From assembly GCF_044324875.1 (NCBI RefSeq), contig NZ_CP172185.1: a DNA stretch of 64,000 bases; one strand, written 5' to 3'. Position numbers and translations under genes: made by a program. Within the stretch, counting starts at the first letter, position 1, and each line of letters starts with the position of its first letter. Origin of the DNA: Escherichia coli. GTDB taxonomy: Bacteria > Pseudomonadota > Gammaproteobacteria > Enterobacterales > Enterobacteriaceae. This document shows positions 7,744-36,457 of this stretch, one piece after another. The notes beneath the pieces were generated by a model. The model was given only the letters and a program-made list of their open reading frames with translations. It did not search any database and was not told where the DNA came from.

Positions 7744-7952
7744 CCAGCAAATACACCACCAACGCACGCAAGCCAGGCAAGGAGGCACGTCATCACATTG
7801 CCGTTCTGCGCAATCTCATCATGTGCGAAATCGACGACTTTGTGGCGGGACTGGGCCAGCCGGGCGAGCCAGCAACACCGGGCGAAATACACAAAGAACT
7901 ACGCCGCCGCATAGAAAGCGCGGTGGATTACGTCATGAACCCGAACGACTGA
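7740..7952 (+). CDS. Hypothetical early-region protein (70 aa)
   Basis: Translationally coupled to the preceding ORF. Confidence 0.45.
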   Translation: MTSKYTTNARKPGKEARHHIAVLRNLIMCEIDDFVAGLGQPGEPATPGEIHKELRRRIESAVDYVMNPND

Positions 7953-7992
7953 CCAGAACGCGAGCGCGCGCCGGATGACGCACGCATAACGC

Positions 7993-8478: not shown

Positions 8479-8721
8479 TGCGGTTTAACCCTCCTCATCA
8501 TCTCGCCCCTGCCCTTTTTCAGGCGCGGGAGCCGGTTGCCGTGGCACATGAAATTTATCGCTATCAGACATTTATTTTTTCCCGTGTGTTGTTGAACAAA
8601 GTGCCCGCACAGTTTTGACGGAACGGCGGGCGCTTCAAGCGTAACACACCCTTCTTTTCCGGTTGAAGGCGAAAAAAACCGGACAGCTACCCGACACAAA
8701 CCAGACCAGCGGAGAACTGCC

Positions 8722-12749: not shown

Positions 12750-13156
12750 ACCGTTATCATTGTGTACTGCCGCGCCACTACTTCGGTCAGATTATGCGCT
12801 CGCGTATTCCGGCGGTCACGCTGCGAAACCTGAGCACGGTACCGCAGCCGGGCGATGAGCTGGAAATCGCCGTAGCAGGCCCTGACCGTTCAGCCAGCTG
12901 CGTGACCGCCGACGTGCTGAACGCCGTGCCCGTAGGTGGTGACTGGCTGGTTGCCATCCGCTTCCGCCAAGACCCGTTCGCACCTGAACCGCTCACCCCC
13001 GCAGGCCGCATCATGCAGAACTGGCGGGATGAAGGCGCGAAGGCGAACTGCGAAAAACTGATTAACAGGATTGCCACGACAAACCGACATGCCGCGCTGG
13101 CGCGCCGGATATACCCCGCAAAACCGACACAACCAACAGGAGTAAAACGCCCATGA
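12746..13156 (+). CDS. Hypothetical protein (136 aa), start overlaps the gene A stop
   Basis: ATGA overlap with A; unknown function. Confidence 0.5.
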   Translation: MNRYHCVLPRHYFGQIMRSRIPAVTLRNLSTVPQPGDELEIAVAGPDRSASCVTADVLNAVPVGGDWLVAIRFRQDPFAPEPLTPAGRIMQNWRDEGAKANCEKLINRIATTNRHAALARRIYPAKPTQPTGVKRP

Positions 13157-13292
13157 AAAGAATCGCCGGAACCCACAGAGACACAAAAAGACACCAAAAG
13201 CAGCAAAGACACATTGAATAAACGAAAACTGGTGATATGATTTGTTCAAAGATGTTATGATTTATTCATAAGTAACCTTTCAGGCTTAAGTT

Positions 13293-13667
13293 ATGAATAA
13301 ACAGGATTTTGGACTTGATACCCTTTTGAGTATGCATGGTTACCAGCATCACATGGATAACGGGTACTGGTGGAAAATTGAGGCTTACCGGGTAAGTCCA
13401 AGTCCGTTCAGACCTCACGGGATACGCTACAATCTGACGTTACATGACCGCTACAATTCGCGTGTGTTTGGTATGGACAACGCACATGGAATAAAACCGC
13501 CAAAGAAGGGAAGATTTACAGGAAAGTTAACTGTTTATGATCATGTGCACCGTACCCCGGTGGATAAAGGTTATCCCTATGAGTTTGTATCCGCAGAACA
13601 ATTGTTATCTGATTTCTTTGATAACGTTGATCGGCTCATTAACGAAGTTACAAAGGGGAAAGCATGA
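13293..13667 (+). CDS. Hypothetical small protein (124 aa), first gene of an overlapping two-gene module in the A-to-Q cargo region
   Basis: ORF with own upstream promoter-like region (direct repeats atgatttgtt / atgatttatt); stop overlaps the next start (ATGA). H/Y/W-rich; no motif I can assign with confidence. Confidence 0.6.
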   Translation: MNKQDFGLDTLLSMHGYQHHMDNGYWWKIEAYRVSPSPFRPHGIRYNLTLHDRYNSRVFGMDNAHGIKPPKKGRFTGKLTVYDHVHRTPVDKGYPYEFVSAEQLLSDFFDNVDRLINEVTKGKA

Positions 13668-14050
13668 AAGCCCGCATCGGGATCATCCCGGAAAAAGTCC
13701 TGCGTCAGCGCCTGATTGAAATTGCCAAGGGGGAGCGGAAACCACACCCCGACGAGCCAAGGGTATGGTTTTCATCCATCAATGCGGCGGGTCAGGCGCT
13801 GAGCAATGAAAATATCTCCCTTCTTCGTCTTATGGATGAGGAGAAACCGCAGACCATGACCGAACTTGCGGAGTTATCCGGCAGAAAACTGAGTAACCTG
13901 TCTGTAACCCTGAAAATGCTGAGCAGCTACGGTTTTGTCAGTCTGGAAAAGAAAGGAAATACCGTACACCCGAAGGCACTTTTTACCGATTTTGAAATCA
14001 TCGTTGATCCGTCCGTCGGTTCAGTACATCGCGCCACCGCCCGCCCCTGA
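13664..14050 (+). CDS. Putative winged-helix DNA-binding protein (128 aa), second gene of the two-gene module
   Basis: Central MarR/winged-helix-like segment (MTELAELSGRKLSNLSVTLKMLSSYGFVSLEKKG); translationally coupled to 13293..13667. Confidence 0.6.
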   Translation: MKARIGIIPEKVLRQRLIEIAKGERKPHPDEPRVWFSSINAAGQALSNENISLLRLMDEEKPQTMTELAELSGRKLSNLSVTLKMLSSYGFVSLEKKGNTVHPKALFTDFEIIVDPSVGSVHRATARP

Positions 14051-14063
14051 AGTGTGCAATAAA

Positions 14064-14090
14064 CAGCCCCGGTCGGGGCTGTTTTTTATT
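14064..14090. terminator. Bidirectional intrinsic terminator between the converging 13664..14050 and 14086..14460 genes
   Basis: cagcccc-ggtc-ggggctg hairpin followed by ttttttatt. Confidence 0.6.
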
Positions 14091-14460
14091 CCAGAATCAG
14101 CTGTTCAGGTGTGCAGCCGTACAGTCTGGCAAGGCGCTCAATATTTGCCCTGCGCGGGCGTTCTGTTCTTTCGAATTCGGACACGGTAGCCTGCCTGATA
14201 CCCAGCGCATCCGCCACCTGCTTTTGCGTCATTCCGCGATAGATTCGCCACGCCGCCTGCATGGTGCAGCCACGTTCCGAGAGGATGTTGACCACCTCGT
14301 TGGGATACAGCGTATCAGGCGATGCACTCGGTTCGTTCTGGACGTCCTCGTAGAGTTCGTCAAGGTCGCTGTCTCCTGCCAGTTTTTCAAACAACGCCAC
14401 TGGCAGAATGACGGATACCCTGTTACCCGCACCGTCAGTAATAAACTGAATCTGACTCAT
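14086..14460 (-). CDS. XRE-family helix-turn-helix protein (124 aa), candidate antitoxin
   Basis: C-terminal HTH_XRE-like segment (MTQKQVADALGIRQATVSEFERTERPRRANIERLARLYG); downstream of and co-oriented with a RelE/ParE-like ORF. Confidence 0.6.
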   Translation of the reverse strand: MSQIQFITDGAGNRVSVILPVALFEKLAGDSDLDELYEDVQNEPSASPDTLYPNEVVNILSERGCTMQAAWRIYRGMTQKQVADALGIRQATVSEFERTERPRRANIERLARLYGCTPEQLILE

Positions 14461-14533
14461 TTGCCCCTCCTGCTAAACATCGGTTTATTTTTTAATTTGC
14501 TGCCGGTGATAAAAAACGGCGGGTCGCCCCGCC

Positions 14534-14806
14534 TTAGTATGTTGTCGAGGTTCTCCGCTGAATACGGAGGATCCTGATAACCACTATCTGCCCTCCCTCA
14601 ATCGTGAACCTGACACGGTAATGATTTACCCTGAGTCTGTACTCCCCGCCCGAGTCAGTGAGCTTTTTAATATCCAGATTCTGGAACTTCGGATAGCCAT
14701 AAAGCGCGTTAACTTTCTCGCGTAAGGATTTCTGATCCCTCGCTGGCAAAACCCGTAAATCTTTGATTGCCCGAGGGGTCCACATGATTTCAGTCGTCAT
14801 AAACAC
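14534..14806 (-). CDS. RelE/ParE-superfamily toxin-like protein (about 88-90 aa; start GTG 14806 or ATG 14800)
   Basis: N-terminal ...WTPRAIKDLRVL... and C-terminal YRLRVNHYRVRF...IVVIRI segments resemble RelE/ParE/HigB-type toxins. Confidence 0.6.
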   Translation of the reverse strand: MFMTTEIMWTPRAIKDLRVLPARDQKSLREKVNALYGYPKFQNLDIKKLTDSGGEYRLRVNHYRVRFTIEGGQIVVIRILRIQRRTSTTY

Positions 14807-14851
14807 ACCGGAAGCAAATTATTAAAGAGCCGTGCCCGCTGGCACACCTTA

Positions 14852-14880
14852 AATATAGGTTTTAACCCCTATATTGTCAA
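14852..14880 (-). promoter_or_regulatory. Sigma70-like promoter (TTGACA-N17-TATATT on minus strand) with an embedded 7-bp inverted repeat operator, upstream of the RelE-like gene
   Basis: Minus-strand ttgaca / 17-bp spacer / tatatt; spacer contains atatagg...cctatat palindrome (plus 14853..14874). Confidence 0.55.
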
Positions 14881-15057
14881 ACAAAATCCCTATATCATGA
14901 AGTAAAAAAGCACCTCCCGCGACCTCCCTTTCCGGTGCACGAAAGTGCACAAATTTGCACAATTTTTTTGAACGACTTTTTGCCCTTCCGGCCCGTGTGG
15001 CGTCTGGATCCGTCGGGGATCCGTGCGTGCACGAAAAAAGGCCTTTTTCTGCGCGCA

Positions 15058-15076
15058 GGTGACGGGGGAACAGCCC
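15058..15076 (+). other. Candidate cos (cohesive end) 19-mer ggtgacgggggaacagccc
   Basis: GC-rich 19-mer in the non-coding region between early/cargo genes and the portal gene; matches 13 of 19 positions of the P2 cos sequence as I recall it (GGCGAGGCGGGGAAAGCAC). Tentative. Confidence 0.3.
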
Positions 15077-15389
15077 GCGTTTCAGGGGGTAAATAGCATT
15101 CCCTGAACGATGTTGCAGTGACACAACAGAATGGCTGTATTTCTCACGCTGAGCGTGAAAAAGACGTAAGGGCTTTTGATTTGATGGGGTGAAAGATAAG
15201 GCCGTCAAAATCGCACTGAGGCAGCGAGAATATGTCGTCAGAGTTGCGGGGTTGCGTAAGCATCCGCCCGGCGATGATGGCTACAGGGCTGGAGATGTTG
15301 TGAAATTATCTGAAGGAATAACCAGCTTGCAGGAGAACCCGGGCAAAGTCAGAATAGCGGCAGGCATCAACTCAAAAGAGGATAATGTC

Positions 15390-15893
15390 ATGAGCCACTT
15401 TAATGATTTATGCCAGATCAATCGTGAAGCTGAAGAAAAACGCGCTGAGGCAGCTCAAATTTTGCGGGATGAAGCGGCAAGGCTGATTGATTTCTATGAA
15501 GAATGGCTGGGGCTTCCATCCATGTACTGGGAAGACGATGATGGCGACCTGCACCGCTACGTGGAGACAGGCTTGCCATGTAAGACAGCGGCGGATTTTA
15601 GTCCTCTTTCAGTCCACAATATCGCATCTGCACCAGACAATATTTTCCGCATGGCCGTACGAACCTGGGTAAAGTCATCTGACAGCAGCTACCCGGTAAG
15701 CGTGGTTATTGCACTTGAATTATATTCAGTAGATGCGGAACGGGTGTCTCTGAGAGTCCGGGTGGAAGACGATATTTCTGTTCGCGTATTTATCAATAAA
15801 CCCAGCGAAGAAGCCTGGGGCGATGTTGTTATGCACATGAAAAAGCACATCGCTAATCACCTGAAAAAGCGAGCGCCATCAGCACTTCGTTAA
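15390..15893 (+). CDS. Hypothetical protein (167 aa from ATG 15390 with AAGAGG ribosome binding site), orphan gene next to the portal gene
   Basis: ORF 15189..15893 with best start at 15390; acidic, no recognisable motif; preceded by about 580 bp without credible coding potential. Confidence 0.55.
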   Translation: MSHFNDLCQINREAEEKRAEAAQILRDEAARLIDFYEEWLGLPSMYWEDDDGDLHRYVETGLPCKTAADFSPLSVHNIASAPDNIFRMAVRTWVKSSDSSYPVSVVIALELYSVDAERVSLRVRVEDDISVRVFINKPSEEAWGDVVMHMKKHIANHLKKRAPSALR

Positions 15894-15908
15894 GCAGAGC
15901 TGGAGAGT

Positions 15909-15933
15909 CGGGGCATAAATTTTTTATGCCCCG
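15909..15933. terminator. Bidirectional hairpin (11-bp stem cggggcataaa / tttatgccccg) between the orphan gene and Q
   Basis: Perfect 11-bp stem, 3-nt loop, A/T tracts on both sides. Confidence 0.6.
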
Positions 15934-15959
15934 GCGAAGCAGCAGACAAGCGAAGCGCG

Positions 15960-17015
15960 TCAGGATATGGGCCGGGTGTCTAACAGTGCGTAAGGGTTAA
16001 AACGGATCACCTCTTCGCCCAGCCAGTCGTTGACGTGTTTCATTGCTTCCATGACGGGCATCAGTTCGTTAATGGCAAACACACGGGCTGCCTTCTCCAC
16101 ATCCCCGAATGACCCCTTCTCACCCGGCATGGCCCCCATCAGCTGAGGTGGCACGCGGTGCACAGCCAGCACGTCATCACGCGATGCGGCCTTGACGTTC
16201 ATGAACTCATCCTTTGCGGTGATTTGCTGAAACGGCAAAATCTGTACGCCATCCTTACCACCTCCCGCCGCGTGGATGAGCAGATTTTTAAACGCCCCGC
16301 CACCACGCGCGCTTTGCAGCGTTTCCCGCAGTTTTTCCATGCTTTCACGGTCAACCTGCGCCGCACCGATGTAGACAATACAGCCCGCGTGTGAGCCGTT
16401 ATCGTAGTAGAGCTTGCGGAAGATATCGGCGGAATGTGACAGGCTGGCAGACAGCAGGCCGCCCAGGTAATCCGGCATCCCGTAAATCTCCTGGTTGATA
16501 TCAGGATTCATCAGGTGGCATATCGTCCCCTCACGAAAGCGGTACTCTTCCTGTCCTTCCTGTATATACCACCATGATTTCATATCGCTGCCACGTCGCA
16601 TGTATTTCGCCAGCGCCCGGCGCAGGGCCAGCGGTTCGCCAAGCATGTTGCGCCGCAGCTCAAGACAGGCATTACCGAACACAAACCAGTCCATCGCCAC
16701 CCCGGCGAACTCCTGGCGGGACAGCAGAGGATGTGGAATATAGCAGCCCAGCAGCACATTACGTTTGAAGCTGAGCGCCGACTGGTGCCAGGACGTCTGG
16801 CGGGCAGCCCGTGCCAGTCCGTACCAGTCAACGGGCGTTTCAAACCACCGCCCGTTGTCGGCGCAGTACATGCTGTCCAGCAGGTCGGCCCCTGACAGCC
16901 GGTAAGGTCCTTCAAACGTGAAGGCACTCAGTGTCGGGTCGCTTCGCAGGGAATCCGCAAGGCTGCCCTGCGCTGCGCGGGCGTTCGTACGTCGTTGTTT
17001 ATTTTTTCTGCTCAT
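15960..17015 (-). CDS. Q: Portal protein, P2 gpQ family
   Basis: 351 aa (P2 Q is about 344 aa as recalled); divergent from the O-N-M-L capsid operon and adjacent to P as in P2. Confidence 0.85.
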   Translation of the reverse strand: MSRKNKQRRTNARAAQGSLADSLRSDPTLSAFTFEGPYRLSGADLLDSMYCADNGRWFETPVDWYGLARAARQTSWHQSALSFKRNVLLGCYIPHPLLSRQEFAGVAMDWFVFGNACLELRRNMLGEPLALRRALAKYMRRGSDMKSWWYIQEGQEEYRFREGTICHLMNPDINQEIYGMPDYLGGLLSASLSHSADIFRKLYYDNGSHAGCIVYIGAAQVDRESMEKLRETLQSARGGGAFKNLLIHAAGGGKDGVQILPFQQITAKDEFMNVKAASRDDVLAVHRVPPQLMGAMPGEKGSFGDVEKAARVFAINELMPVMEAMKHVNDWLGEEVIRFNPYALLDTRPIS

Positions 17016-21812: not shown

Positions 21813-22307
21813 ATGAGCATGGTCGCAAGACCGGAAGCCGCCCCTGCGCGGGACGACATCACCGACACCGACGACGGCGACGCCACCATCACCGCCGGGG
21901 CATTCTGGCCGGAGATTGTGCTGCGGGAGCTGCGCCTTGCAGTACGCCTGCCGGGCCGCATCACCTCCACACGTCTGGCGCACGTTGCCACGGGAGCCGT
22001 GGCTCACGTCACGCGGGAGCTGGAAGAGTGGCAGCAGGCGCAAATCGCCGCAGGATTCAGCACGCTGACAGACGTACCTGCCGCCACCATCAACGGTGAG
22101 AGCGTCAACGCCTGGCATTACCGGCACGCCGTCTACAGCGCCACCCGTGCCCTGATTCTGGAGCGCTGGCGGGATGTGGACACCACCGACAAGGGGGACC
22201 GCAGGGCTGACGCACTGGATGAGCAGGTGGAGGACCTGTGGCGCGACGTGCGCTGGGCGATTTCCGATATTCTCGGCTTTCCCCGTCTTTTTGTGGAGCT
22301 TGTGTGA
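21813..22307 (+). CDS. L: Capsid completion protein, P2 gpL family (164 aa from ATG 21813)
   Basis: Position after M, size as P2 L; stop overlaps the X start. Confidence 0.75.
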   Translation: MSMVARPEAAPARDDITDTDDGDATITAGAFWPEIVLRELRLAVRLPGRITSTRLAHVATGAVAHVTRELEEWQQAQIAAGFSTLTDVPAATINGESVNAWHYRHAVYSATRALILERWRDVDTTDKGDRRADALDEQVEDLWRDVRWAISDILGFPRLFVELV

Positions 22308-22504
22308 TGAAAGTGAGGGCACTTCAGGGGGACACCGTCGATTTACTCTGTTTCCGGCACTACGGCACCACGCAGGGGGTGACCGCACAGGTACTTGATG
22401 CCAATCCAGGGCTCTGCCGCCAGGTAATTCTGGAAGCGGGACAGGAGGTGGAGATGCCGGAGCCGGAAAGGAAACAGCAACGCGAAAAGGTAAAGCTATG
22501 GTGA
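22307..22504 (+). CDS. X: Tail protein X (65 aa)
   Basis: Small ORF MKVRALQGDTVDLLCFRHYG... at the position of P2 X. Confidence 0.7.
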   Translation: MKVRALQGDTVDLLCFRHYGTTQGVTAQVLDANPGLCRQVILEAGQEVEMPEPERKQQREKVKLW

Positions 22505-22788
22505 CGGGATTTTTTCAGCGCGTCAGTGACTGGATCACCTTCTGGGCGTCAGTGACGGCAACAACCATTGGTGTTATGACCATCAGCGAAAAAATTGCGC
22601 TGGCCGGGCTGCTTCTGGGGTCACTTTCCGCCATCCATGCCTGGTGCCACCGCAGGCGTACGGAGCAGGCAATGAAGCGCCGCAATGACCTTATCGCCCG
22701 CATCCTGGCACGTTCAGAAAACCGCGAGCTTCACGACGGTGAGAGACGGGCACTGGACAGCGTGAGACAGGACGGAGAAGAGCGGTGA
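22498..22788 (+). CDS. Putative holin (96 aa)
   Basis: Small protein with hydrophobic segment(s) immediately upstream of the endolysin. Confidence 0.5.
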   Translation: MVTGFFQRVSDWITFWASVTATTIGVMTISEKIALAGLLLGSLSAIHAWCHRRRTEQAMKRRNDLIARILARSENRELHDGERRALDSVRQDGEER

Positions 22789-23330
22789 AACTGCCGGTAA
22801 AACGTTATGCGGTGGCGGCCATTGTGGCGCTGGGCGTCTCCATGGCACCCGGTGAACTGAGAACCTCACGGGAAGCACAGATAAAAATCGCCACCCGGGA
22901 AGAGTGCCGGGCGACACCGTACCGGGATATTGCAGGAGTAATGACCGTGGGATGTGGTTCAACAGGGGGCGTGGAGAACCGGGTTTACGGAGAAAAGGAG
23001 GTGGCCCGCCGCTGGGTGAATGACCTGCGGCACGCGGAAAACTGTATCAACCAGAACTTCAGCGGTGCCGCCATGCCCCAGTCCGCCTTTGAGGCGATGA
23101 CCGACGCGGCGTTCAACGTCGGCTGTACCGGCCTGATGTGGTACCGGGACAGGAGCGGCAACCGGCAGCGCACCACCATCTGGAAGCACGCACAGGCGCA
23201 CCGCTGGGTGGCGATGTGCGGGAGACTGACCGATTTTGTCAACAGTGGCGGACGCCGCTCACAGGGGCTGGTTAACCGCCGGGAGGAGTTCAGACAGTGG
23301 TGTCTTCGCGACACGGGAGGCAGCACATGA
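22785..23330 (+). CDS. Endolysin (lysozyme-type), possibly a signal-anchor-release form
   Basis: 181 aa with hydrophobic N-terminal segment (YAVAAIVALGVSMAPG) followed by a lysozyme-like region (TPYRD...GVMTVGCGSTGGV). Confidence 0.7.
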   Translation: MKLPVKRYAVAAIVALGVSMAPGELRTSREAQIKIATREECRATPYRDIAGVMTVGCGSTGGVENRVYGEKEVARRWVNDLRHAENCINQNFSGAAMPQSAFEAMTDAAFNVGCTGLMWYRDRSGNRQRTTIWKHAQAHRWVAMCGRLTDFVNSGGRRSQGLVNRREEFRQWCLRDTGGST

Positions 23331-23734
23331 GACCGGTTTACGCCGTGATTGTTGCCCTCATGGTGACCACCCTGACGGCGGCGGCCATGTGGCAGTCATA
23401 CCGGCTGGGGCGTGCCGGTGAGGCACGTGACGCCGCAGAGCAGCAGCTGGGCGAATACAGCCGGGCGCTGCGTGAGTCCTCCGCCGTTATCAGCGATGCC
23501 TCCGCCGTACTGCATGAGGTGATGACGCAGCGACAGAAAAGGGCACAGGAAGGAGAAGTCAGACGTGAACAGCTTCGCGAAATTGCTGCGACGGATGAGT
23601 GCGCCGGCACTCTTCCTGACCACCGTTTTACTGACCGGCTGCGCGAACACACGGAACGCGCCACTGCCCGCGCCCTCCTTCCGGTTCATTCCGGCGGGAC
23701 TGACGACGGGAACACGGCCCCCGCCCTTCCCTGA
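23327..23734 (+). CDS. Spanin inner-membrane subunit (Rz/LysB-like)
   Basis: N-terminal transmembrane helix then coiled-coil-type charged region; contains the embedded lipoprotein ORF in another frame. Confidence 0.65.
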   Translation: MRPVYAVIVALMVTTLTAAAMWQSYRLGRAGEARDAAEQQLGEYSRALRESSAVISDASAVLHEVMTQRQKRAQEGEVRREQLREIAATDECAGTLPDHRFTDRLREHTERATARALLPVHSGGTDDGNTAPALP

Positions 23735-23879
23735 ACACCCCACATGGGGAAATATCGGGATATGGAGCGACAGCCTCCTGGATGCACTGGAAACCTGCAA
23801 CGCAGACAAACAGGCCATTGAGGCGCTGGAGCGCCGGAGACTCAACCGACAGAACGGAGGGGGACATGCTGAAAAGTAA
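23565..23879 (+). CDS. Spanin outer-membrane lipoprotein subunit (Rz1/LysC-like), embedded in and extending past the i-spanin gene
   Basis: Lipobox LLTGC after a signal-like N-terminus, Pro-rich mature region; out-of-frame overlap with 23327..23734. Confidence 0.65.
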   Translation: MNSFAKLLRRMSAPALFLTTVLLTGCANTRNAPLPAPSFRFIPAGLTTGTRPPPFPEHPTWGNIGIWSDSLLDALETCNADKQAIEALERRRLNRQNGGGHAEK

Positions 23880-24330
23880 ATCCCTGAGCACACACATGAG
23901 TACAGCGTGCCGGTGGTGCAGGGCCAACCCGGAAAAGTTCACCGTGTTCATTGAACGTGGCGGGATAGAGACCACCGGCGAGACGCCGACGTTCGTGTAC
24001 AACTACCGGCTCGTGATGTTCGTCATGGACTACACGGGCGACCTGGACGACCTGACGCTTCCACTGATTGTCTGGCTGGCAGAGAACCAGCCGCAGTTGC
24101 TGCTTAATCCTGAGCGCAACGGCGATATTCAGTTCACGGCGGCCATTAACGACGACGACAGTGCGGACGTGCTTTTTGAGCTGCCGCTGCGCGAGCGCGT
24201 GCGCGTCACCCGCAGGGATGACGGCACCCTCACAACGGAACATCTGCCGGAGCCGAAATCGCGCATCCCGCAGGACGGCGACTGGTCGCACATTCTGGAG
24301 GATGTGACGTGGGAGGTGACCGGTGACTGA
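23866..24330 (+). CDS. R: Tail completion protein, P2 gpR family (from ATG 23866)
   Basis: Position after the lysis genes as in P2; GGAGGGGG ribosome binding site before ATG 23866. Confidence 0.7.
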   Translation: MLKSKSLSTHMSTACRWCRANPEKFTVFIERGGIETTGETPTFVYNYRLVMFVMDYTGDLDDLTLPLIVWLAENQPQLLLNPERNGDIQFTAAINDDDSADVLFELPLRERVRVTRRDDGTLTTEHLPEPKSRIPQDGDWSHILEDVTWEVTGD

Positions 24331-29910: not shown

Positions 29911-30399
29911 TCACATCAGATCATTTACGCCGCTTACTGTGGTATTCCAGACCGAACTTAACTTCCCTTTCATTCCCGAAAGCATATCAGACACCGGCGA
30001 CGAGGCCATACTCTCCCGCAAATCCTCATCACAGCGTTCCAGACTGACAGTGAACTCAATTTTTTTGGCCTTACCGTGGCGGTCAAGTTCGCTTCGCGTT
30101 GTGCGGACAGCCGTTATCACATACATGCCGTATATCTGCCCCACACCGTCAATCAGCGGCCATGGGCGACCAGTGTAAGCCTGCGTCGTTAAAAGGCTGA
30201 GGGAAACCTCACCGCCGGTAATTTCGGGATAAAGCACACCGGACAACGTGATCTGGTCGTCACCCGCCCCGATATACTGCCAGCTGGCCGAACGATTGAT
30301 GCGTTCATTTTTAACGTGGCGCCAGGTTTTATTATGTTGCAGTTGTTGATGAGGCAGCGTACGCAACTCAAAAACAAACATGCCGTAAATCATCATCAT
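29911..30399 (-). CDS. U: Tail protein, P2 gpU family
   Basis: 162 aa (P2 U about 159 aa); N-terminus MMMIYGMFVFELRTLPHQ... resembles gpU as recalled. Confidence 0.8.
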   Translation of the reverse strand: MMMIYGMFVFELRTLPHQQLQHNKTWRHVKNERINRSASWQYIGAGDDQITLSGVLYPEITGGEVSLSLLTTQAYTGRPWPLIDGVGQIYGMYVITAVRTTRSELDRHGKAKKIEFTVSLERCDEDLRESMASSPVSDMLSGMKGKLSSVWNTTVSGVNDLM

Positions 30400-30410
30400 G
30401 CGAGGTACTC

Positions 30411-33400
30411 CTAATCTCTGTCACGGAAACTACCGACTGTCTGGCGGATACGGCGTTCCATTTCCGCACGGACGGCATCACCCACCATTTTTGCCAGTTC
30501 GCGCGGGTTTTGCGTGTGAACATCATGCAGGTGAATATGCAGTTCGCCAGTTAATCCCCATGGTGCCGGATCACTCTGACGCGGTCGGGGCGATGCGGGG
30601 GATATGGGCTGGCGTACAGCCTCAACCACCGGACGGGATGTTGCCGTTACGACGGGTGTCATTACCGGCGCAATATTGCCGGACACGACCGGTTTAATTA
30701 CCGGGGAGAGCGTCGGTATAACATCGCCAGCCATAACCGGTTTGATCGCTGGCGAAATAACCGGAGCAACAGACTCAGCCATGACGGAACTGACAGGCTG
30801 AGGCGCTCTCACTATGCCAGCATCGATAACCAGCATGAGCTCGCGTACTGCCTCAAGGACAGGACGGGATATTGCCGCCATCACTGGTGTCATTAGCGGG
30901 GAGAACGTCGGCATGACATCGTGAGTCATAACCGGTTTGATCACCGGCGAAACCACTGGCGTAATATTACCGGACAGTACCGGACGGACGACCGGAGGAA
31001 TAACCGGCACATTATTCACGGACACCACCGGCTTCACGACCGGCGACACGTTCGCCGTGGTGGATATCAGCGGCGAAACACTGACAGGCGGTGGCGCTGG
31101 CAGCGGTGGCAACGAAGGCACACTGACCGACGGCACCTGCGGCAGTCTGACAGGTGGCTCACTGACACTACCCGGTAACAGGGAAGCTGCGCGGTTAAAG
31201 CGTTCCTCCTTCCACTCACCACGAACGGCCAGCGCTTCCGGCAGGTTTTTAAAGATAATATCGCCGGGACCAGTGCGTTTTTTCGCCTGTTTCGCCTCAT
31301 CCAGCAGGCCACCGGTGTTATCGACGATTTTATTCAGGCGACGCATGGTGCCGGTATTCTCCCCCGTCAGCGGAGCAGTTGCTGCAGGTGCAGGTACTGG
31401 CGGCTTTTTGTCTTTGTCATTTTGCGGCGGATTAATGACATTAACATCCGCCAGGAGCATGGCGGCTTTCTCGTTCAGCAGCTCCTTCTGCTTCAGCTCT
31501 TCCGCCTTTTTCCGGGCGCGCTCAACCGCCGACGGAATCAGCCCGAGTTTTTCCAGCACCCGGGTTAACGAGTCAACCAGCAGCGTGACCGGACCGGTCA
31601 CCAGATTGCTGATAAACTCCCCGACCTTCTGCCCGAACGTCCGCCCGGCTTCCGTGCACTTGTCCAGCTCATCCTTTGTTGTGCTTACCGGCGCGAACAG
31701 GTCCACGAACCACTGCCACACACGCCCGATTGTCTGCCCGACGTACTCAAATATCGGTCCCAGCGGTGCCACAGCCTCGCGCAGTGGCGTAAGCCCCTGC
31801 CACAGGCCGGACAGATACCCACCCACGACAGCCTTCAGCTGGTCCCAGTGCCGCCAGATAAGCACTGCCGCACCGACCAGTGCCGCCACCACGAGGCCCA
31901 CCGGACTTAACAGAAAACCCAGCGCCCCGCCAAGTGCGCCCACCGCACCACTCACCATTCCCCACAGCGCAGGCAGACCTGACAGTCTGAGCGCCAGCAT
32001 ACCGATACCGCGCCCCAGAGAAAGCAGAGCACCGCCCGGGGAAGTGAACGCAGCCAGCAGACCACCACGCAGCGTACCGAGTAGTCCGCGCACGCCACGA
32101 AGCCGGACCGCAAGCCGTCCCGCACCGGTATCAAGACCGGCAAACAGCACACGCCAGCCGCCAATACCACTCATCGACCCACCGAGTACGCCGCGCAGCT
32201 GCGTCAGTAACGGCAGCGCACGACCGAGGCCGGATGTGCCGGTCAGCAGGGAAAAGCCAAGACGCAGTTTTGCCAGCGGCCCCAGCAACACGCCGGTAGC
32301 CAGTGACAGCGCCCCCGTGGCCGCAACCGCAGCCAGCAGTGCACCACCGGCAATCAGCAGTTGTTTTGTCAGTTCAGGGTGCGCCTGGGCCAGCGCGGTG
32401 ACTTTCGCAATAACCCGGGTGAACGACTGCGTGACAGAACGCAGCGGCCCGTCAACGAGGTCAGCGACACGGATACGCAGCCCTTCCCATGCGCTGTTCA
32501 GTGATTTCAGGTCGCCGTCCAGGTTGTCCGCCATGATTCTGGCGTTTTCTTCCAGTTCGCCGTTCGCTGCCTGAATCTCACGCGTCAGGCGCGGCAGGTT
32601 TTTTTCGCCTGCCTGTTCAACCAGGCTCATCAGGGAGACATACGCCTCCTGCCCGGCAATATCTGAAAAGAACGAGACTTTTGCCGCGTTACCGTATTTA
32701 CGGGTGGCCTGATACAGCTCATACAGGATATCTTCCATCGGGCGCATGTTCCCGTAAGCATCCTGCGTTTCCACGCCCAGCTGTTTCAGCGCCTTTGCTG
32801 CCGCTTTAGGCGGGTTCACAAGGCGGGACAGACTGGAGCGCAGCGCCGTACCAGCATCACTGCCACGTATCCCCATCGACCCAAGCAACCCGGTCATGGC
32901 TGCGGTCTGTTCAAGAGACAGACCGAGTGAGGCGGCGACCGGTCCCGTATATTTCATCGTCTCACCAAGCCCGCGCAGGTCGGTATTGGTGCGGGTGAAC
33001 GTTGCGGCCAGCGTGTCACCCACGCGGTTCATCTGGTCGGCAGACAACCCGAACTGCGTAAGGATATTTGAGCTGATATCGGCCGTCTGACCGAGGTCCA
33101 TGCCGCTGGCCGTTGCCAGATTCAGCACGCCGGGAAGAGCCGCCTGTATCGCCTGCGGCGTGAACCCCGCCATGGCAAGGAACGCCTGACCGCTGGCAGC
33201 ATCACCTGCGGTAAACTGCGTTTCGGAGCCGAGTTTAAGCGCCTGTTCGCGCAGCGCCTTAAACTGCGGACTGTTTTTGTCAATACGGGTCAGCGCCTGG
33301 ACGCGCGACATCTCCTTACCAAAACTGACCGCCGGTTGCAGGAAACGCCCGGCCGCATAGCCACCTGCCGCTGCCGTGCCGACTGCCGTAAATCCACCCG

Positions 33401-33932
33401 CTTTCAGTTTTCCCGCCATCTCCTGAGCGCGGAAATATTGCTGGCGTGCCTGCGTGACGCGTGCCAGAGTCTGCCGTTCACGTTCCAGCTGTTCGTTGTA
33501 TTGCTGTGTTCGCCGTATGGCCTGTTGAATGGTGTTGTCACTGCCGGAAAGCGCAATACCGTGACGCCGCAGCTCACCACCCAGTTCGCGCATTCGCTGA
33601 ACTTCACGCGCACGGACCTCATTGAGACGCTCAAGTTTGAGGCTCAAATCGTTCATCAGCTTTTTCTGTTTGTCAGACAGCACGGTTCCGGCGCGCTGAA
33701 TTTGCTGAAGTGCGCTTAACTGGCGTTGTGCCCGGGCAATGCCGTTTCCGGCCTTGTTTGCAGCCTCGCGGGCGCGATCAAATGAACGGGCGTGGCGTTC
33801 CAGGTTTTTGATCGCACCCTGCGTTCTCTGTATGGAGTCGCCAAGCTGGCCCATCATGCGACGGGCGTTTTCGGTGGGACGGGTCAGCCTGTCAACAGCG
33901 CTGAAGGCGACCCGTATATCAAGCGTTTTCAT
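30411..33932 (-). CDS. T: Tail tape measure protein (gpT-like), 1173 aa from the ATG overlapping the E' stop, with Pro/Val-rich repetitive C-terminus
   Basis: Very long Ala/Gly/Leu-rich ORF following the E/E' chaperone pair; the ORF track start at 33968 is an over-extension. Confidence 0.85.
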   Translation of the reverse strand: MKTLDIRVAFSAVDRLTRPTENARRMMGQLGDSIQRTQGAIKNLERHARSFDRAREAANKAGNGIARAQRQLSALQQIQRAGTVLSDKQKKLMNDLSLKLERLNEVRAREVQRMRELGGELRRHGIALSGSDNTIQQAIRRTQQYNEQLERERQTLARVTQARQQYFRAQEMAGKLKAGGFTAVGTAAAGGYAAGRFLQPAVSFGKEMSRVQALTRIDKNSPQFKALREQALKLGSETQFTAGDAASGQAFLAMAGFTPQAIQAALPGVLNLATASGMDLGQTADISSNILTQFGLSADQMNRVGDTLAATFTRTNTDLRGLGETMKYTGPVAASLGLSLEQTAAMTGLLGSMGIRGSDAGTALRSSLSRLVNPPKAAAKALKQLGVETQDAYGNMRPMEDILYELYQATRKYGNAAKVSFFSDIAGQEAYVSLMSLVEQAGEKNLPRLTREIQAANGELEENARIMADNLDGDLKSLNSAWEGLRIRVADLVDGPLRSVTQSFTRVIAKVTALAQAHPELTKQLLIAGGALLAAVAATGALSLATGVLLGPLAKLRLGFSLLTGTSGLGRALPLLTQLRGVLGGSMSGIGGWRVLFAGLDTGAGRLAVRLRGVRGLLGTLRGGLLAAFTSPGGALLSLGRGIGMLALRLSGLPALWGMVSGAVGALGGALGFLLSPVGLVVAALVGAAVLIWRHWDQLKAVVGGYLSGLWQGLTPLREAVAPLGPIFEYVGQTIGRVWQWFVDLFAPVSTTKDELDKCTEAGRTFGQKVGEFISNLVTGPVTLLVDSLTRVLEKLGLIPSAVERARKKAEELKQKELLNEKAAMLLADVNVINPPQNDKDKKPPVPAPAATAPLTGENTGTMRRLNKIVDNTGGLLDEAKQAKKRTGPGDIIFKNLPEALAVRGEWKEERFNRAASLLPGSVSEPPVRLPQVPSVSVPSLPPLPAPPPVSVSPLISTTANVSPVVKPVVSVNNVPVIPPVVRPVLSGNITPVVSPVIKPVMTHDVMPTFSPLMTPVMAAISRPVLEAVRELMLVIDAGIVRAPQPVSSVMAESVAPVISPAIKPVMAGDVIPTLSPVIKPVVSGNIAPVMTPVVTATSRPVVEAVRQPISPASPRPRQSDPAPWGLTGELHIHLHDVHTQNPRELAKMVGDAVRAEMERRIRQTVGSFRDRD

Positions 33933-34445
33933 GCTCTGCGTTCCCGCTGCGAAGGGCCGCCCGCTCACGCCAGGCGACCACCTCGCCGGGATCCATCAGG
34001 AAGATTTCAGCGGGAGACCAGTTGAAAATAACGGCGATATCCGCCACAAAGTCTTCAATATGCTCAAAGGGCACGACGGTTATCAGCCTGCCGTCGCCGC
34101 CACGCTCTTCCCGCCAGAGTCCTGACCGGCCAAAAAATTAACCGCCACCCCGCACAGCTGAATAAAATCAGCGGACCCCATGCGCTTAAGCATAACCTCG
34201 TCCAGTCGCGGCGAAGTGACGCGCGGGAGTAACTCAAACATCGCGTCCGTTTTCATGTTCAGCACGTCAAGCAGTGACAGCCCGCGCAGTGAACCGGCCT
34301 GCTGTACAGCAGGCGTGATTTCCACATACGTGATTTTTTTGTTACCGAGCACAAGGGGTGTTTTCAGTGTCACGCCGCGCTCACTGGTCACGTCAGCCAC
34401 ATCAGCACCGTCAGTAACAGGGGCAACAACCGGATTTTCTTTCAT
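33919..34445 (-). CDS. Tail assembly chaperone frameshift product E+E' (programmed -1 frameshift at 34131..34137)
   Basis: Manual translation in the -1 frame after T_TTT_TTG gives an extended product ending at TGA 33919..33921, overlapping the tape measure start. Confidence 0.7.
34083..34445 (-). CDS. E: Tail assembly chaperone, P2 gpE family (zero-frame product)
   Basis: 120-aa ORF upstream of the tape measure gene; carries the slippery heptamer near its 3' end. Confidence 0.8.
   Translation of the reverse strand: MKENPVVAPVTDGADVADVTSERGVTLKTPLVLGNKKITYVEITPAVQQAGSLRGLSLLDVLNMKTDAMFELLPRVTSPRLDEVMLKRMGSADFIQLCGVAVNFLAGQDSGGKSVAATAG
34131..34137 (-). promoter_or_regulatory. Programmed -1 ribosomal frameshift heptamer T TTT TTG (E to E')
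   Basis: Heptamer in frame as (AA)T TTT TTG in the last part of E; conserved mechanism in tail chaperone genes. Confidence 0.7.
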
Positions 34446-34494
34446 GAATAAAACCTCAAATCAGGGGCGACGCCACGCGCCGCCGTGGAAAACA

Positions 34495-35013
34495 TTAACC
34501 ACCAAGACCAATCGCCGAGCGCACGCGGTCCGGGAAGACGCTTTTGCCGTCCTTGCGTTCGATGTGGTTCAGTAAATCAATCTCCAGCACCGGACGGTCG
34601 TTAATGCTGAGTTTGTAGTAGGTACTTTTGACCGCATAGGTGTGAGACGTGACCTCACCCTGTTTGGCCTCCCCGGTATCAATTTCCGTCACGCGACCGC
34701 GAAGCTCAATCTCGTACAGGTCACTCTGTTCTTCATCGTTGTAGTACTCACCGACAAAGCGCAGCAGCGTACCGTCAATCGTGCCGCCGTACTTGAGGAA
34801 CAGTTCGCGGGTCGGCCCGCCCATGGTGAAACTCGCATCCAGCGCGCCGTCATCCAGGCCAAGGTCGATATTTACTGCACCGGCCATACCACCACCGCGA
34901 TAGGCTTCCGTTTTACGGGTCAGTTTGGGGGGCGTGAAGCCGGTCACCCTGCCAATCTGGTTCACCCCGTCAGTAAACAGCGTGAACACCCTGAGATTTT
35001 TTGGTACGGCCAT
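34495..35013 (-). CDS. FII: Tail tube protein, P2 gpFII family
   Basis: 172 aa between the sheath and E genes. Confidence 0.8.
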   Translation of the reverse strand: MAVPKNLRVFTLFTDGVNQIGRVTGFTPPKLTRKTEAYRGGGMAGAVNIDLGLDDGALDASFTMGGPTRELFLKYGGTIDGTLLRFVGEYYNDEEQSDLYEIELRGRVTEIDTGEAKQGEVTSHTYAVKSTYYKLSINDRPVLEIDLLNHIERKDGKSVFPDRVRSAIGLGG

Positions 35014-36296: not shown

Positions 36297-36369
36297 ATGT
36301 TTCACCCTTGTCTGGCTGGTTGATTTTGCGTAATCATTACCCACACACGCGGTAATCTCACCCCTTTGA

Positions 36370-36393
36370 TGTTGTCTCCTGACAGCGACAACA
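36370..36393. promoter_or_regulatory. Perfect dyad TGTTGTC-N10-GACAACA containing TGT-N12-ACA, candidate Ogr-dependent late promoter element shared by divergent FI and D
   Basis: Read directly; fits the TGT-N12-ACA dyad characteristic of P2 late promoters; lies in the 160-bp FI/D divergent region. Confidence 0.5.
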
Positions 36394-36457
36394 AAACAGC
36401 CATTCAACGCCGCTACGGTGCATGAAACCATTACAGAACGCACCAGGAGAGAACACC

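What the first reader, a model, noticed from the sequence alone, without database searches (positions are those of the whole stretch)
22498..23879. Lysis cassette with signal-anchor-type endolysin and embedded spanin pair
The endolysin has a hydrophobic N-terminal segment consistent with a SAR endolysin, which would imply a pinholin-type holin upstream. The o-spanin lipoprotein gene (lipobox LTGC) is embedded out of frame in the i-spanin gene and runs into the start of R. Standard biology, but the layout differs from the P2 Y-K-lysA-lysB-lysC set as I recall it.
Basis: inference. Interest (0 to 1): 0.25.

Follow-up and report, generated by a model that had tools for sequence, protein, structure and literature searches.

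The report
P2-type prophage lysis cassette, SAR endolysin
This is an ordinary four-gene phage lysis cassette (holin, membrane-anchored lysozyme, two-part spanin) in a P2-like E. coli prophage; the one unusual point is that its P1-type lysozyme has swapped the cysteines its relatives use as an activation switch.

Summary
Window 22498-23879 carries four translationally coupled lysis genes between tail gene X and tail-completion gene R of a P2-like prophage:
- a 96-aa two-TMD holin
- a 181-aa GH24 lysozyme with a hydrophobic N-terminus
- a 135-aa i-spanin
- a 104-aa lipoprotein o-spanin (lipobox LLTG|C26)

Corrections and refinements:
1. The o-spanin gene is overlapped, not embedded. This is the same layout as P2 lysB/lysC.
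2. The real differences from P2 are the absence of lysA and non-homologous holin, endolysin and i-spanin. The holin-endolysin pair is the HP1/P1-Lyz-type module.
3. The hydrophobic N-terminus belongs to the true protein, although RefSeq starts the gene at Met20. It most likely acts as an uncleaved SAR anchor.
4. A pinholin is plausible from topology and composition, but a SAR endolysin does not require one.

Extra finding: the enzyme sits inside the P1-Lyz clade but has lost the SAR cysteine and the catalytic cysteine (now Asp48) and gained Cys57. This combination arose independently at least three times. It suggests a fixed C41-C57 disulfide in place of thiol-isomerisation control, which is untested.

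Overall this is standard biology and a new member of a known kind.

The parts
22307..22504 (+). Tail protein X gene (upstream flank; its stop overlaps the holin start by 7 nt)
   Evidence: PF05489 1.7e-20. Same position as P2 X.
22498..22788 (+). Holin, 96 aa, class II. Two uncharged segments (residues 12-30 and 33-51) are separated by the loop 'SEK' and followed by a highly basic cytoplasmic tail.
   Evidence: phrog_1350 7e-23. Weak PF16080 (HP1 holin family) match, 19.8 bits, below the cut-off. hhalign against HP1 Hol: probability 75%, E 2.5e-5. G37 and G41 are invariant in 9 homologues. Composition.
22785..23330 (+). SAR-type endolysin, 181 aa, GH24 (T4-lysozyme-like) muramidase of the P1 Lyz lineage, GTG start
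   Evidence: PF00959 1.4e-21. P1 Lyz 1XJT E 7e-36. AF2 model pLDDT 87.8; TM 0.87 and rmsd 2.2 A to active P1 Lyz.
22785..22853 (+). N-terminal signal-anchor (SAR) segment, residues 1-23: MKLPVKR-YAVAAIVALGVSMAPG
   Evidence: 16 uncharged residues, 50% Gly/Ala/Ser/Thr. P22 is invariant in 30 homologues. Codon-level conservation, and ATG at the equivalent start in five relatives. Modelled as helix 10-20 with pLDDT about 96.
22899..22955 (+). Active-site stretch: E39 (22899-22901), C41 (22905-22907), D48 (22926-22928), T54 (22944-22946), C57 (22953-22955)
   Evidence: The E-8x-D-5x-T triad and C41 are invariant. The C41/D48/C57 pattern without an N-terminal Cys is surveyed.
23327..23734 (+). i-spanin, 135 aa, with an N-terminal TMD (residues 3-25), a helical periplasmic domain and a single periplasmic Cys92
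   Evidence: phrog_214 1.3e-25. Hydropathy. Not a LysB equivalog (TIGR03495 17.8 bits against 92.75).
23565..23879 (+). o-spanin, 104-aa precursor, GTG start. The lipobox LLTG|C26 is at 23631-23642. Mature protein is a 79-aa lipoprotein (Ala at +2, 9 Pro, Cys78). The gene lies in the +1 frame: 170 nt inside the i-spanin gene, 145 nt beyond it, and 14 nt into R.
   Evidence: PF23793 LysC 2e-13. phrog_456 aligns residues 2-95. Geometry. The same overlapped GTG-started gene is present in five relatives.
23866..24330 (+). Tail completion gene R (downstream flank)
   Evidence: PF06891 4e-38.

Best explanation
This is the lysis module of a P2-like (Peduoviridae) prophage of E. coli. It is transcribed as part of the late head/tail operon, and its genes are translationally coupled by 4-14-nt overlaps.

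Proposed mechanism; every step is inferred from homology, and none was tested here:
1. The endolysin is exported by Sec. It stays tethered to the inner membrane, enzymatically restrained, by its short, weakly hydrophobic N-terminal SAR segment.
2. The two-TMD holin accumulates in the inner membrane and triggers at a set time. It most likely acts as a pinholin that collapses the proton-motive force.
3. Depolarisation lets the SAR helix leave the bilayer. It then folds onto the catalytic domain, as in active P1 Lyz, giving an active muramidase with a canonical Glu39/Asp48/Thr54 triad.
4. Once the murein is degraded, the i-spanin/o-spanin complex fuses the inner and outer membranes.

This enzyme differs from P1 Lyz and from its closest relatives. 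It has no cysteine in the SAR segment and no catalytic cysteine. Activation therefore cannot use thiol-disulfide isomerisation and must rest on membrane tethering and refolding alone, as in R21. Cys41 probably forms a permanent disulfide with the newly acquired Cys57.
For: Gene identities and boundaries:
- There are no internal promoter-like sites and no +strand terminator-like sites.

SAR endolysin:
- The closest solved relative is P1 Lyz (E 7e-36). The protein is 40% identical to HP1 Lys and 28% identical to R21 (E 8e-12).
- The N-terminus has basic residues followed by 16 uncharged residues with 50% G/A/S/T. P1 Lyz and HP1 Lys SAR segments show the same fraction.
- P22 is invariant directly after the only AXA-like site (S19-M20-A21). 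No alternative cleavage site is conserved: the -1 residue of 'APG' is E, H or D in relatives.
- Sister sequences carry a conserved Cys8 in this segment together with C41 and C48. That is the P1 isomerisation set and only makes sense if the segment stays on the mature protein.
- The AF2 model places helix 10-20 (pLDDT about 96) on the body. It superposes on active Lyz 1XJT (TM 0.87) far better than on the inactive form 1XJU (TM 0.58).
- The start codon is supported by ATG at the same position in five relatives. It is also supported by 136 third-position differences against 66 and 40 at first and second positions over codons 2-23.

Holin:
- phrog_1350, and a remote match to HP1 Hol, whose neighbour is the homologous Lys.
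- TMD1 is 53% G/A/S/T, against 55% for S21 TMD1.
- G37xxxG41xxxA45 in TMD2 has both glycines invariant.

Spanins:
- Lipobox, Ala at +2, the LysC Pfam match, and single periplasmic cysteines in both subunits.
- The same overlapped pair is present in five relatives.

Cysteine rewiring:
- Among about 130 full-length homologues, an N-terminal Cys and C57 never co-occur.
- Every member that has C41 and a hydrophobic N-terminus has one or the other.
- The C41/D48/C57 state is nested inside the P1-type clade and recurs in P0084/P0102 (sister to HP1 Lys) and in P0148.
Against: - No experiment was done. Export, tethering, release and hole size are all inferred.
- The uncharged N-terminal stretch is only 16 residues, against 24 in P1 Lyz and 20 in HP1 Lys. 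That length is closer to a signal-peptide h-region. In this particular sequence 'A21-P22-G23|E24' satisfies the -3/-1 rule.
- The holin has no detectable homology to the proven pinholins S21 (hhalign probability 1.4%) or LydD (0.5%). Its Pfam match to the HP1 holin family is below the curated cut-off. SAR endolysins can also work with large-hole holins (PMC9025707).
- The C41-C57 disulfide is inferred from covariation only. DSSP strands 41-47 and 53-57 suggest the two residues may be two register steps apart in the hairpin, which would be marginal for a disulfide.
- The paper that classifies SAR endolysins by cysteine pattern (Kuty et al. 2010) could not be read. Prior description of this subclass therefore cannot be excluded.
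Confidence: 0.8

Rival explanations
1. The N-terminal segment is an ordinary cleavable Sec signal peptide. The lysozyme would then be released soluble into the periplasm. Under this reading, loss of the N-terminal cysteine and acquisition of an internal partner (C57) reflect the segment no longer being part of the mature enzyme.
For: - The h-region-like length of 16 uncharged residues is shorter than the SAR segments of P1 Lyz and HP1 Lys.
- 'APG|E' fits the -3/-1 rule in this sequence.
- Losing the SAR Cys while gaining C57 is what one would expect if the N-terminus were removed.
Against: - The best AXA-like site (S-M-A) is followed by the invariant Pro22. By established knowledge of LepB specificity, Pro at +1 blocks signal peptidase I.
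- The alternative site is not conserved: the -1 residue is E, H or D in clade members.
- The segment is almost identical to that of sister proteins, which must retain it because it carries their regulatory Cys8.
- AF2 models it with pLDDT about 96 as a helix packed on the domain, as in active P1 Lyz.
- A constitutively soluble periplasmic lysozyme would kill the host before assembly is complete.
Confidence: 0.12
2. The endolysin starts at Met20 (window 22842), as annotated by PGAP in RefSeq E. coli genomes. It would then be a 162-aa cytoplasmic lysozyme that needs a large-hole holin.
For: RefSeq annotates the identical gene this way in strain LH50-c (L007 1045-1533).
Against: - Position 20 is CTC, ATT or CTG (Leu/Ile) in five relatives, which all have ATG at the position of the window's GTG 22785.
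- Codons 2-23 are under purifying selection: 9 synonymous against 2 amino-acid-changing codon differences to L008, and a third-position excess of 136 against 66 and 40.
- GGAG lies 7 nt upstream of the GTG, which overlaps the holin stop. No Shine-Dalgarno sequence precedes ATG 22842.
- Other sources annotate the 181-aa form (P0001).
Confidence: 0.03
3. The holin is a class II large-hole holin rather than a pinholin. It both depolarises the membrane and opens non-specific lesions, and the SAR endolysin simply responds to the depolarisation.
For: - There is no homology to S21 or LydD.
- P1 shows that canonical holins cooperate with a SAR endolysin (PMC9025707).
- At 96 aa with a 45-residue charged tail, the protein is larger than S21 68.
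Against: - It is tightly linked and translationally coupled to a SAR endolysin. The pairing is conserved from HP1 to enterobacterial P2-like phages.
- TMD1 is weakly hydrophobic and Thr/Ala/Gly-rich.
- TMD2 carries an invariant GxxxG.
Confidence: 0.35

Closest known systems
Phage P2 lysis region (Y, K, lysA, lysB, lysC) between X and R
   Same: - Same genomic slot (L-X-[lysis]-R-S).
- Same overlapped +1-frame o-spanin that runs into R: 38 nt in P2, 14 nt here.
- The o-spanin belongs to the LysC Pfam family.
   Different: - There is no lysA.
- The holin has no BLASTP alignment to Y, and the endolysin and i-spanin have only chance-level alignments (E above 1) to K and LysB. The o-spanin is only 24% identical to LysC (E 0.067).
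- P2 K has no signal anchor (own knowledge).
Haemophilus phage HP1 hol-lys-Rz module
   Same: - Same gene order (holin, SAR lysozyme, spanin) in a P2-like phage.
- The endolysin is 40% identical (E 7e-35).
- The holin is remotely related (hhalign probability 75%, E 2.5e-5).
   Different: - HP1 Lys keeps the P1-type cysteine set: Cys11 in the SAR segment, the E-G-C motif, and a catalytic Cys. The window enzyme has Y8, D48 and C57.
- The module lies elsewhere in the HP1 genome, after the tail tube gene.
Phage P1 Lyz (prototype SAR endolysin; PDB 1XJT active, 1XJU inactive)
   Same: - Closest solved structure: E 7e-36, model TM 0.87 to the active form.
- Same fold, N-terminal signal anchor, and the E-x-C motif.
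   Different: - P1 Lyz is activated by disulfide isomerisation using Cys13 (SAR), Cys44 and the catalytic Cys51 (Xu et al. 2005; own knowledge).
- Here the SAR Cys and the catalytic Cys are absent and Asp48 is restored.
Lambdoid phage 21 S21-R21-Rz/Rz1 (pinholin / SAR endolysin paradigm)
   Same: - Same order: class II holin, SAR endolysin, then a two-component spanin.
- The endolysin lacks a SAR cysteine and has a canonical E/D/T triad, as R21 does.
   Different: - The holin is not detectably homologous to S21 (probability 1.4%) and has no dual-start antiholin.
- R21 is only 28% identical to the endolysin.
- Rz1 of phage 21 is fully embedded in Rz, whereas here the o-spanin is overlapped.
Peduoviridae phages phiT5282H (Novemvirus) and ST16-OXA48phi5.4 (Reipivirus)
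   Same: - Closest sequenced phage isolates.
- Same holin family, with holins about 51% identical to the window's.
- Endolysins 66-69% identical.
- Same overlapped spanins and same slot.
   Different: - Their endolysins are P1-type (K-K-C in the SAR segment, E-D-C, Y-Y-C, I57).
- No isolate in the phage collection reaches the identity range of the window-type clade; the best hit is 68.8%.

Membership tests
SAR (signal-anchor-release) endolysin | Muralytic catalytic domain, here GH24 with the E-8x-D/C-5x-T triad | tested here: met
   PF00959 1.4e-21. E39, D48 and T54 are present; E39 and T54 are invariant in 30 homologues.
SAR (signal-anchor-release) endolysin | N-terminal weakly hydrophobic, Gly/Ala/Ser/Thr-rich transmembrane segment after basic residues | tested here: met
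   K2, K6 and R7 precede 16 uncharged residues with 50% G/A/S/T, the same fraction as P1 Lyz and HP1 Lys. The stretch is shorter than theirs (24 and 20 residues).
SAR (signal-anchor-release) endolysin | The segment is part of the real translation product | tested here: met
   Five relatives have ATG at the equivalent codon. Met20 is not conserved. Differences show a third-position excess.
SAR (signal-anchor-release) endolysin | The segment is not cleaved by signal peptidase | tested here: inconclusive
   Pro22 is invariant after S-M-A, and no alternative site is conserved. The helix is modelled as part of the fold, as in active Lyz. No signal-peptide predictor or experiment was available.
SAR (signal-anchor-release) endolysin | Sec-dependent export, membrane tethering, and release on depolarisation | not testable with these tools
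   Needs expression, fractionation and energy-poison experiments.
P1 Lyz-type regulation (thiol-disulfide isomerisation) | Free cysteine in the SAR segment | tested here: not met
   Residues 1-23 contain no Cys. Tyr8 replaces the Cys8 of sister sequences.
P1 Lyz-type regulation (thiol-disulfide isomerisation) | Catalytic Cys in place of Asp (P1 C51), blocked by a disulfide to the Cys two residues after Glu (P1 C44) | tested here: not met
   Asp48 occupies the position. C41, the equivalent of P1 C44, is retained.
Lyz103-type regulation (disulfide caging) | SAR cysteine plus two cysteines flanking the catalytic Glu (definition from Kuty et al. 2010 abstract; own knowledge) | tested here: not met
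   The local sequence is R38-E39-E40-C41, and there is no SAR Cys. C-E-x-C members exist elsewhere in the family, for example P0117 and P0176.
Pinholin (S21 68 prototype) | Two TMDs, with a weakly hydrophobic TMD1 able to leave the membrane and a TMD2 carrying small-xxx-small helix-packing motifs | tested here: met
   Uncharged segments at 12-30 (53% G/A/S/T) and 33-51. G37xxxG41xxxA45 has both glycines invariant. The C-tail is basic. This is compositional evidence only.
Pinholin (S21 68 prototype) | Sequence relationship to a proven pinholin (S21, P1 LydD) | tested here: not met
   hhalign probability is 1.4% to S21 and 0.5% to LydD.
Pinholin (S21 68 prototype) | Forms small holes that depolarise the membrane but do not release a cytoplasmic endolysin | not testable with these tools
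   Needs a complementation test with lambda R, as in PMC9025707.
HP1 holin family (PF16080) | Profile match at or above the curated cut-off | tested here: not met
   19.8 bits against a cut-off of 28.8. hhalign to HP1 Hol gives probability 75%, E 2.5e-5. It is probably a distant relative.
Two-component spanin, overlapped architecture (P2 LysB/LysC type) | i-spanin: type II inner-membrane protein with an N-terminal TMD and a periplasmic domain | tested here: met
   TMD at residues 3-25. phrog_214 1.3e-25.
Two-component spanin, overlapped architecture (P2 LysB/LysC type) | o-spanin: outer-membrane lipoprotein signal (lipobox, Cys, no Asp at +2) | tested here: met
   LLTG|C26-A27-N28, with a basic n-region (K6, R9, R10). 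PF23793 LysC scores 50.4 bits against 27.
Two-component spanin, overlapped architecture (P2 LysB/LysC type) | The o-spanin gene starts inside the i-spanin gene in another frame and extends beyond its stop | tested here: met
   +1 frame, 170 nt inside and 145 nt beyond. Definition from PMC6139136. Conserved in five relatives.
Two-component spanin, overlapped architecture (P2 LysB/LysC type) | The i-spanin is an equivalog of P2 LysB | tested here: not met
   TIGR03495 scores 17.8 bits against 92.75. BLASTP to LysB gives E 2.5.
Embedded spanin architecture (lambda/phage 21 Rz-Rz1) | The o-spanin gene lies wholly within the i-spanin gene | tested here: not met
   The o-spanin ends at 23879, 145 nt past the i-spanin stop at 23734. 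Compare phage 21, where Rz1 (40795-40977) lies inside Rz (40575-41036).

The most novel reading that the evidence does not exclude
The endolysin may represent an undescribed regulatory subclass of SAR lysozymes. These enzymes descend from P1-Lyz-type, thiol-isomerisation-controlled ancestors. They have repeatedly (at least three times) made the same coordinated change: the SAR cysteine was lost, the catalytic Cys reverted to Asp, and a new Cys appeared three residues after the catalytic Thr. The new Cys would form a permanent disulfide with the conserved Cys next to the catalytic Glu. Covalent redox control would thus have been replaced by purely topological control, with the orphan thiol neutralised by an internal partner.
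Probability: 0.4. Interest if true: 0.4.

Novelty: new member of a known kind. Interest (0 to 1): 0.2.

Why it matters
The cassette itself matters little, because every component belongs to a well-understood class. Three points have modest value.

1. Annotation. Current RefSeq annotation of this cassette removes exactly the signals that define the biology, namely the SAR segment of the lysozyme and the lipobox of the o-spanin. It leaves the holin and i-spanin as 'hypothetical' or 'tail protein'. Automated surveys of lysis strategies in E. coli prophages will therefore misclassify it.

2. Evolution of regulation. The endolysin family offers a natural experiment. Close relatives (65-70% identical) differ in whether they carry the P1-type cysteine switch. 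That makes the contribution of disulfide isomerisation to lysis timing directly testable by swapping three residues.

3. Mosaicism. The HP1-type holin/SAR-lysozyme module has replaced Y-K-lysA in the P2 slot, while the P2-style overlapped spanin arrangement has been kept.

Tried and rejected
- Homology of the holin to the proven pinholins S21 and P1 LydD: none detected.
- Pairwise homology of the holin, endolysin and i-spanin to P2 Y, K and LysB: none detected.
- NCBIfam naming models: no usable hits for the holin or o-spanin. TIGR03495 LysB scores far below its cut-off.
- A dual-start antiholin motif or a lysA-like gene. The N-terminus MVTGFFQR has no second start with an intervening basic residue. 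No additional TMD-bearing ORF lies inside 22498-23879.
- Internal promoters or terminators. There are no promoter-like sites. The only two terminator-like hairpins are on the minus strand and at chance frequency.
- Reading Kuty et al. 2010 and Young 2013 for the published cysteine-based classification. Neither is held in the library. Those statements therefore rest on my own knowledge of the abstracts.
- Measuring the C41-C57 distance. The structure tool returns no coordinates and none are stored in /data. Only DSSP and fold matches were available.
- The Met20 start used by RefSeq: rejected on comparative grounds.
Full report
**1. What is there**

The window holds a P2-like prophage. It runs from an integrase at 4345-5388 to gpD at about 37.5 kb. 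Its GC content is 55.8%, against 51.5% in the flanks.

| Gene | Coordinates | Length | Start | Family match |
|---|---|---|---|---|
| holin | 22498-22788 | 96 aa | ATG | phrog_1350, 7e-23 |
| endolysin | 22785-23330 | 181 aa | GTG | PF00959, 1.4e-21; phrog_7, 9e-48 |
| i-spanin | 23327-23734 | 135 aa | ATG | phrog_214, 1.3e-25 |
| o-spanin | 23565-23879 | 104 aa | GTG | PF23793 LysC, 2e-13 (above cut-off) |

Successive genes overlap by 7, 4, 4, 170 and 14 nt. No promoter-like site and no +strand terminator-like site interrupts them. They are therefore co-transcribed and translationally coupled.

The same cassette at 95% identity or better is present in 25 of 5,426 complete E. coli genomes, always on the chromosome.

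**2. Spanins: overlapped, not embedded**

- The o-spanin gene starts at 58% of the i-spanin gene, in the +1 frame. It shares 170 nt with it, continues 145 nt beyond its stop, and ends 14 nt inside R.
- Kongari et al. [quoted passage not shown]
- In the P2 record, lysC (8202-8492) starts inside lysB (7922-8347) and runs 38 nt into R (8455). The window's spanin layout is therefore the P2 layout.
- Phage 21, by contrast, has Rz1 fully embedded in Rz.
- The precursor has a basic n-region (K6, R9, R10), the lipobox LLTG|C26, and Ala-Asn at +2/+3. By the standard Lol sorting rule this directs it to the outer membrane. The mature protein is a proline-rich 79-aa lipoprotein with one further Cys (C78).
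- The i-spanin has one TMD (residues 3-25) and one periplasmic Cys (C92). This fits the intermolecular-disulfide theme described for spanins (PMC6139136).
- The same GTG-started, +1-frame, overlapped lipoprotein gene is present in all five relatives examined, and gene callers missed it in most of them.

**3. Comparison with P2, phage 21, HP1 and P1**

- Relative to P2 (L-X-Y-K-lysA-lysB-lysC-R), the slot and the spanin architecture are conserved but the content is replaced.
  - The holin has no BLASTP alignment to Y.
  - The endolysin and i-spanin have only chance-level alignments to K and LysB.
  - The o-spanin is only 24% identical to LysC (E 0.067).
  - There is no lysA.
- The holin-endolysin pair is instead the module found in Haemophilus phage HP1. 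The endolysin is 40% identical to HP1 Lys (E 7e-35). The holin family profile matches HP1 Hol (hhalign probability 75%, E 2.5e-5; PF16080 at 19.8 bits, below the cut-off).
- The closest sequenced phages are Enterobacter phage phiT5282H and Klebsiella phage ST16-OXA48phi5.4. They carry the same holin family and the same endolysin family (66-69% identical) in the same slot.
- Gene order is that of phage 21 (S-R-Rz/Rz1). R21 is only 28% identical, and S21 is not detectably related to the holin.

**4. Is the endolysin a SAR endolysin?**

Evidence that it is:

- Its best solved relative is the prototype SAR endolysin P1 Lyz (1XJT, E 7e-36).
- The N-terminus reads MKLPVKR-YAVAAIVALGVSMAPG-ELRTS: three basic residues, then 16 uncharged residues with 50% Gly/Ala/Ser/Thr. 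P1 Lyz and HP1 Lys SAR segments have the same fraction, though the segment here is shorter (16 residues against 24 and 20).

*(a) 'Absent in the true start.'*
- RefSeq does annotate the identical gene from Met20 (L007 1045-1533).
- However, five relatives have ATG exactly where the window has GTG 22785, and their codon 20 is CTC, ATT or CTG.
- Codons 2-23 differ from the 80%-identical relative L008 by 9 synonymous and 2 amino-acid-changing codons.
- Across ten pairs, differences fall 66/40/136 on codon positions 1/2/3.
- A GGAG lies 7 nt upstream of the GTG, which overlaps the holin stop.
- The segment is therefore translated.

*(b) 'A cleavable signal peptide.'*
- The only AXA-like site (S19-M20-A21) is followed by Pro22, which is invariant in 30 homologues. 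Pro at +1 blocks signal peptidase I (established knowledge).
- The alternative A-P-G|E site is not conserved; the -1 residue is E, H or D in clade members.
- Sister proteins with a nearly identical segment carry Cys8 together with C41 and C48. That is the P1 isomerisation triad, and it requires the segment to stay on the mature protein.
- An AlphaFold2 model (pLDDT 87.8) places residues 10-20 as a helix (pLDDT about 96) packed on the domain. It superposes on the active form of P1 Lyz (1XJT, TM 0.87, rmsd 2.2 A over 178 columns) much better than on the inactive form (1XJU, TM 0.58).
- I rate SAR at about 0.8, a cleaved signal peptide at about 0.12, and a Met20 start at about 0.03.

**5.

*The two states in the alignment.* In the alignment of 30 homologues, two states covary perfectly.
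- The P1-type state has Cys8 in the SAR segment, C41, Cys48 at the catalytic Asp position, and Ile/Leu/Met57.
- The window-type state has Tyr8, C41, Asp48 and Cys57.

*Survey of about 130 full-length homologues.* These comprised close relatives plus 50%-identity cluster representatives from an exhaustive HMMER search. The counts were:
- 58 P1-type sequences.
- 19 window-type sequences.
- 12 sequences with an N-terminal Cys, C41 and Asp48. Several of these carry additional E-x-C-x-x-C or C-E-x-C motifs, the latter being the Lyz103 'caging' arrangement.
- No sequence combining an N-terminal Cys with Cys57.
- Every member with C41 and a hydrophobic N-terminus has one partner candidate or the other.
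- Members with C41 alone lack an N-terminal extension and so are presumably cytoplasmic.

*Tree.* An NJ tree was built on the catalytic domain without the three columns in question. It puts the window-type clade inside the P1-type clade. It also shows the same C41/D48/C57 no-N-Cys state arising separately in P0084/P0102 (sister to HP1 Lys) and in P0148.

*Inference.*
- This enzyme cannot be activated by thiol-disulfide isomerisation. It has reverted to the canonical Glu39/Asp48/Thr54 triad.
- It probably neutralises the orphan Cys41 with a permanent C41-C57 disulfide.
- Its total of six cysteines is even, against seven in P1-type relatives.
- Control would then be purely topological, as in R21.

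*Caveats.*
- No coordinates were available to measure the distance.
- The DSSP register (strands 41-47 and 53-57) leaves the geometry uncertain.
- The paper that classifies SAR endolysins by cysteine content (Kuty et al. 2010) could not be read.

**6. Is the holin a pinholin?**

Evidence that it could be:

- The 96-aa protein has two uncharged segments (12-30 and 33-51), joined by the invariant loop S-E-K and followed by a strongly basic tail. This gives class II, N-in/C-in topology by the positive-inside rule.
- TMD1 is 53% Gly/Ala/Ser/Thr, against 55% for S21 TMD1. It varies among homologues.
- The end of TMD1, the loop and the start of TMD2 (IGVMTISEKIALAGLLLG) are nearly invariant. They include G37xxxG41(xxxA45).
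- The gene is always immediately upstream of the SAR lysozyme.
- These features fit a pinholin.

Evidence that leaves the question open:

- There is no homology to S21 or to the experimentally shown P1 pinholin LydD.
- There is no dual-start antiholin.
- P1 shows that SAR endolysins also cooperate with canonical holins (PMC9025707).
I rate pinholin at about 0.55-0.65.

**7. Verdict**

- The cassette is a new member of known kinds: an HP1/P1-type holin and SAR lysozyme module plus a P2-style overlapped spanin pair, in the P2 X-R slot.
- The possible point of novelty is the recurrent cysteine rewiring of the endolysin. This is a modest, testable hypothesis about how SAR endolysins lose redox control.
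- Interest is low overall (0.2).

Noticed in passing
window 22785-22841 and 23565-23687 (compare L007 1045-1533 and 1891-2082): RefSeq/PGAP annotation of the identical cassette in E. coli LH50-c mis-starts two genes. The lysozyme begins at Met20, deleting the signal-anchor segment. lysC begins at codon 42, deleting the signal peptide and lipobox. The holin and i-spanin are annotated 'hypothetical protein'. Holin homologues are named 'phage tail protein' in NCBI and GenBank records.
   Followed up: yes
window 29911-36443 (minus strand) and 36422-37549 (plus strand): The tail module (tail sheath, a phrog_55 protein in the tail-tube position that PHROGs labels 'head closure', tape measure, a tail protein) lies on the minus strand. 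It is inverted relative to the P2 gene order. The gpD-like gene follows on the plus strand.
   Followed up: no
window 12750-15960: There is a cargo island between replication gene A and portal gene Q, the classic P2 variable locus. It holds a ParE-family toxin (14534-14806, minus strand) next to an HTH_3 protein (14086-14460, minus strand). It also holds a plus-strand pair at 13293-13667 (no family) and 13664-14050 (HVO_A0114/MarR-like winged helix). A 234-aa protein of unknown function lies at 15189-15893 (phrog_5091).
   Followed up: partly
window 22498-23879 compared with the whole prophage: The lysis genes have 58-64% GC, against 55.8% for the prophage and 51.5% for the chromosomal flanks. 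This is consistent with the cassette being a mosaic import.
   Followed up: no
L001 3754-4068; L006 2233-2568; L008 2781-3101; L009 2775-3083; L010 2778-3071: Overlapped +1-frame o-spanin genes with lipoboxes are present in these relatives. They are not annotated or called in the phage and metagenome records.
   Followed up: yes
window 22889-22916 (minus strand): A terminator-like hairpin lies on the antisense strand inside the endolysin gene. The count in the region (2) is at the shuffle expectation (2.6), so it is probably chance.
   Followed up: partly
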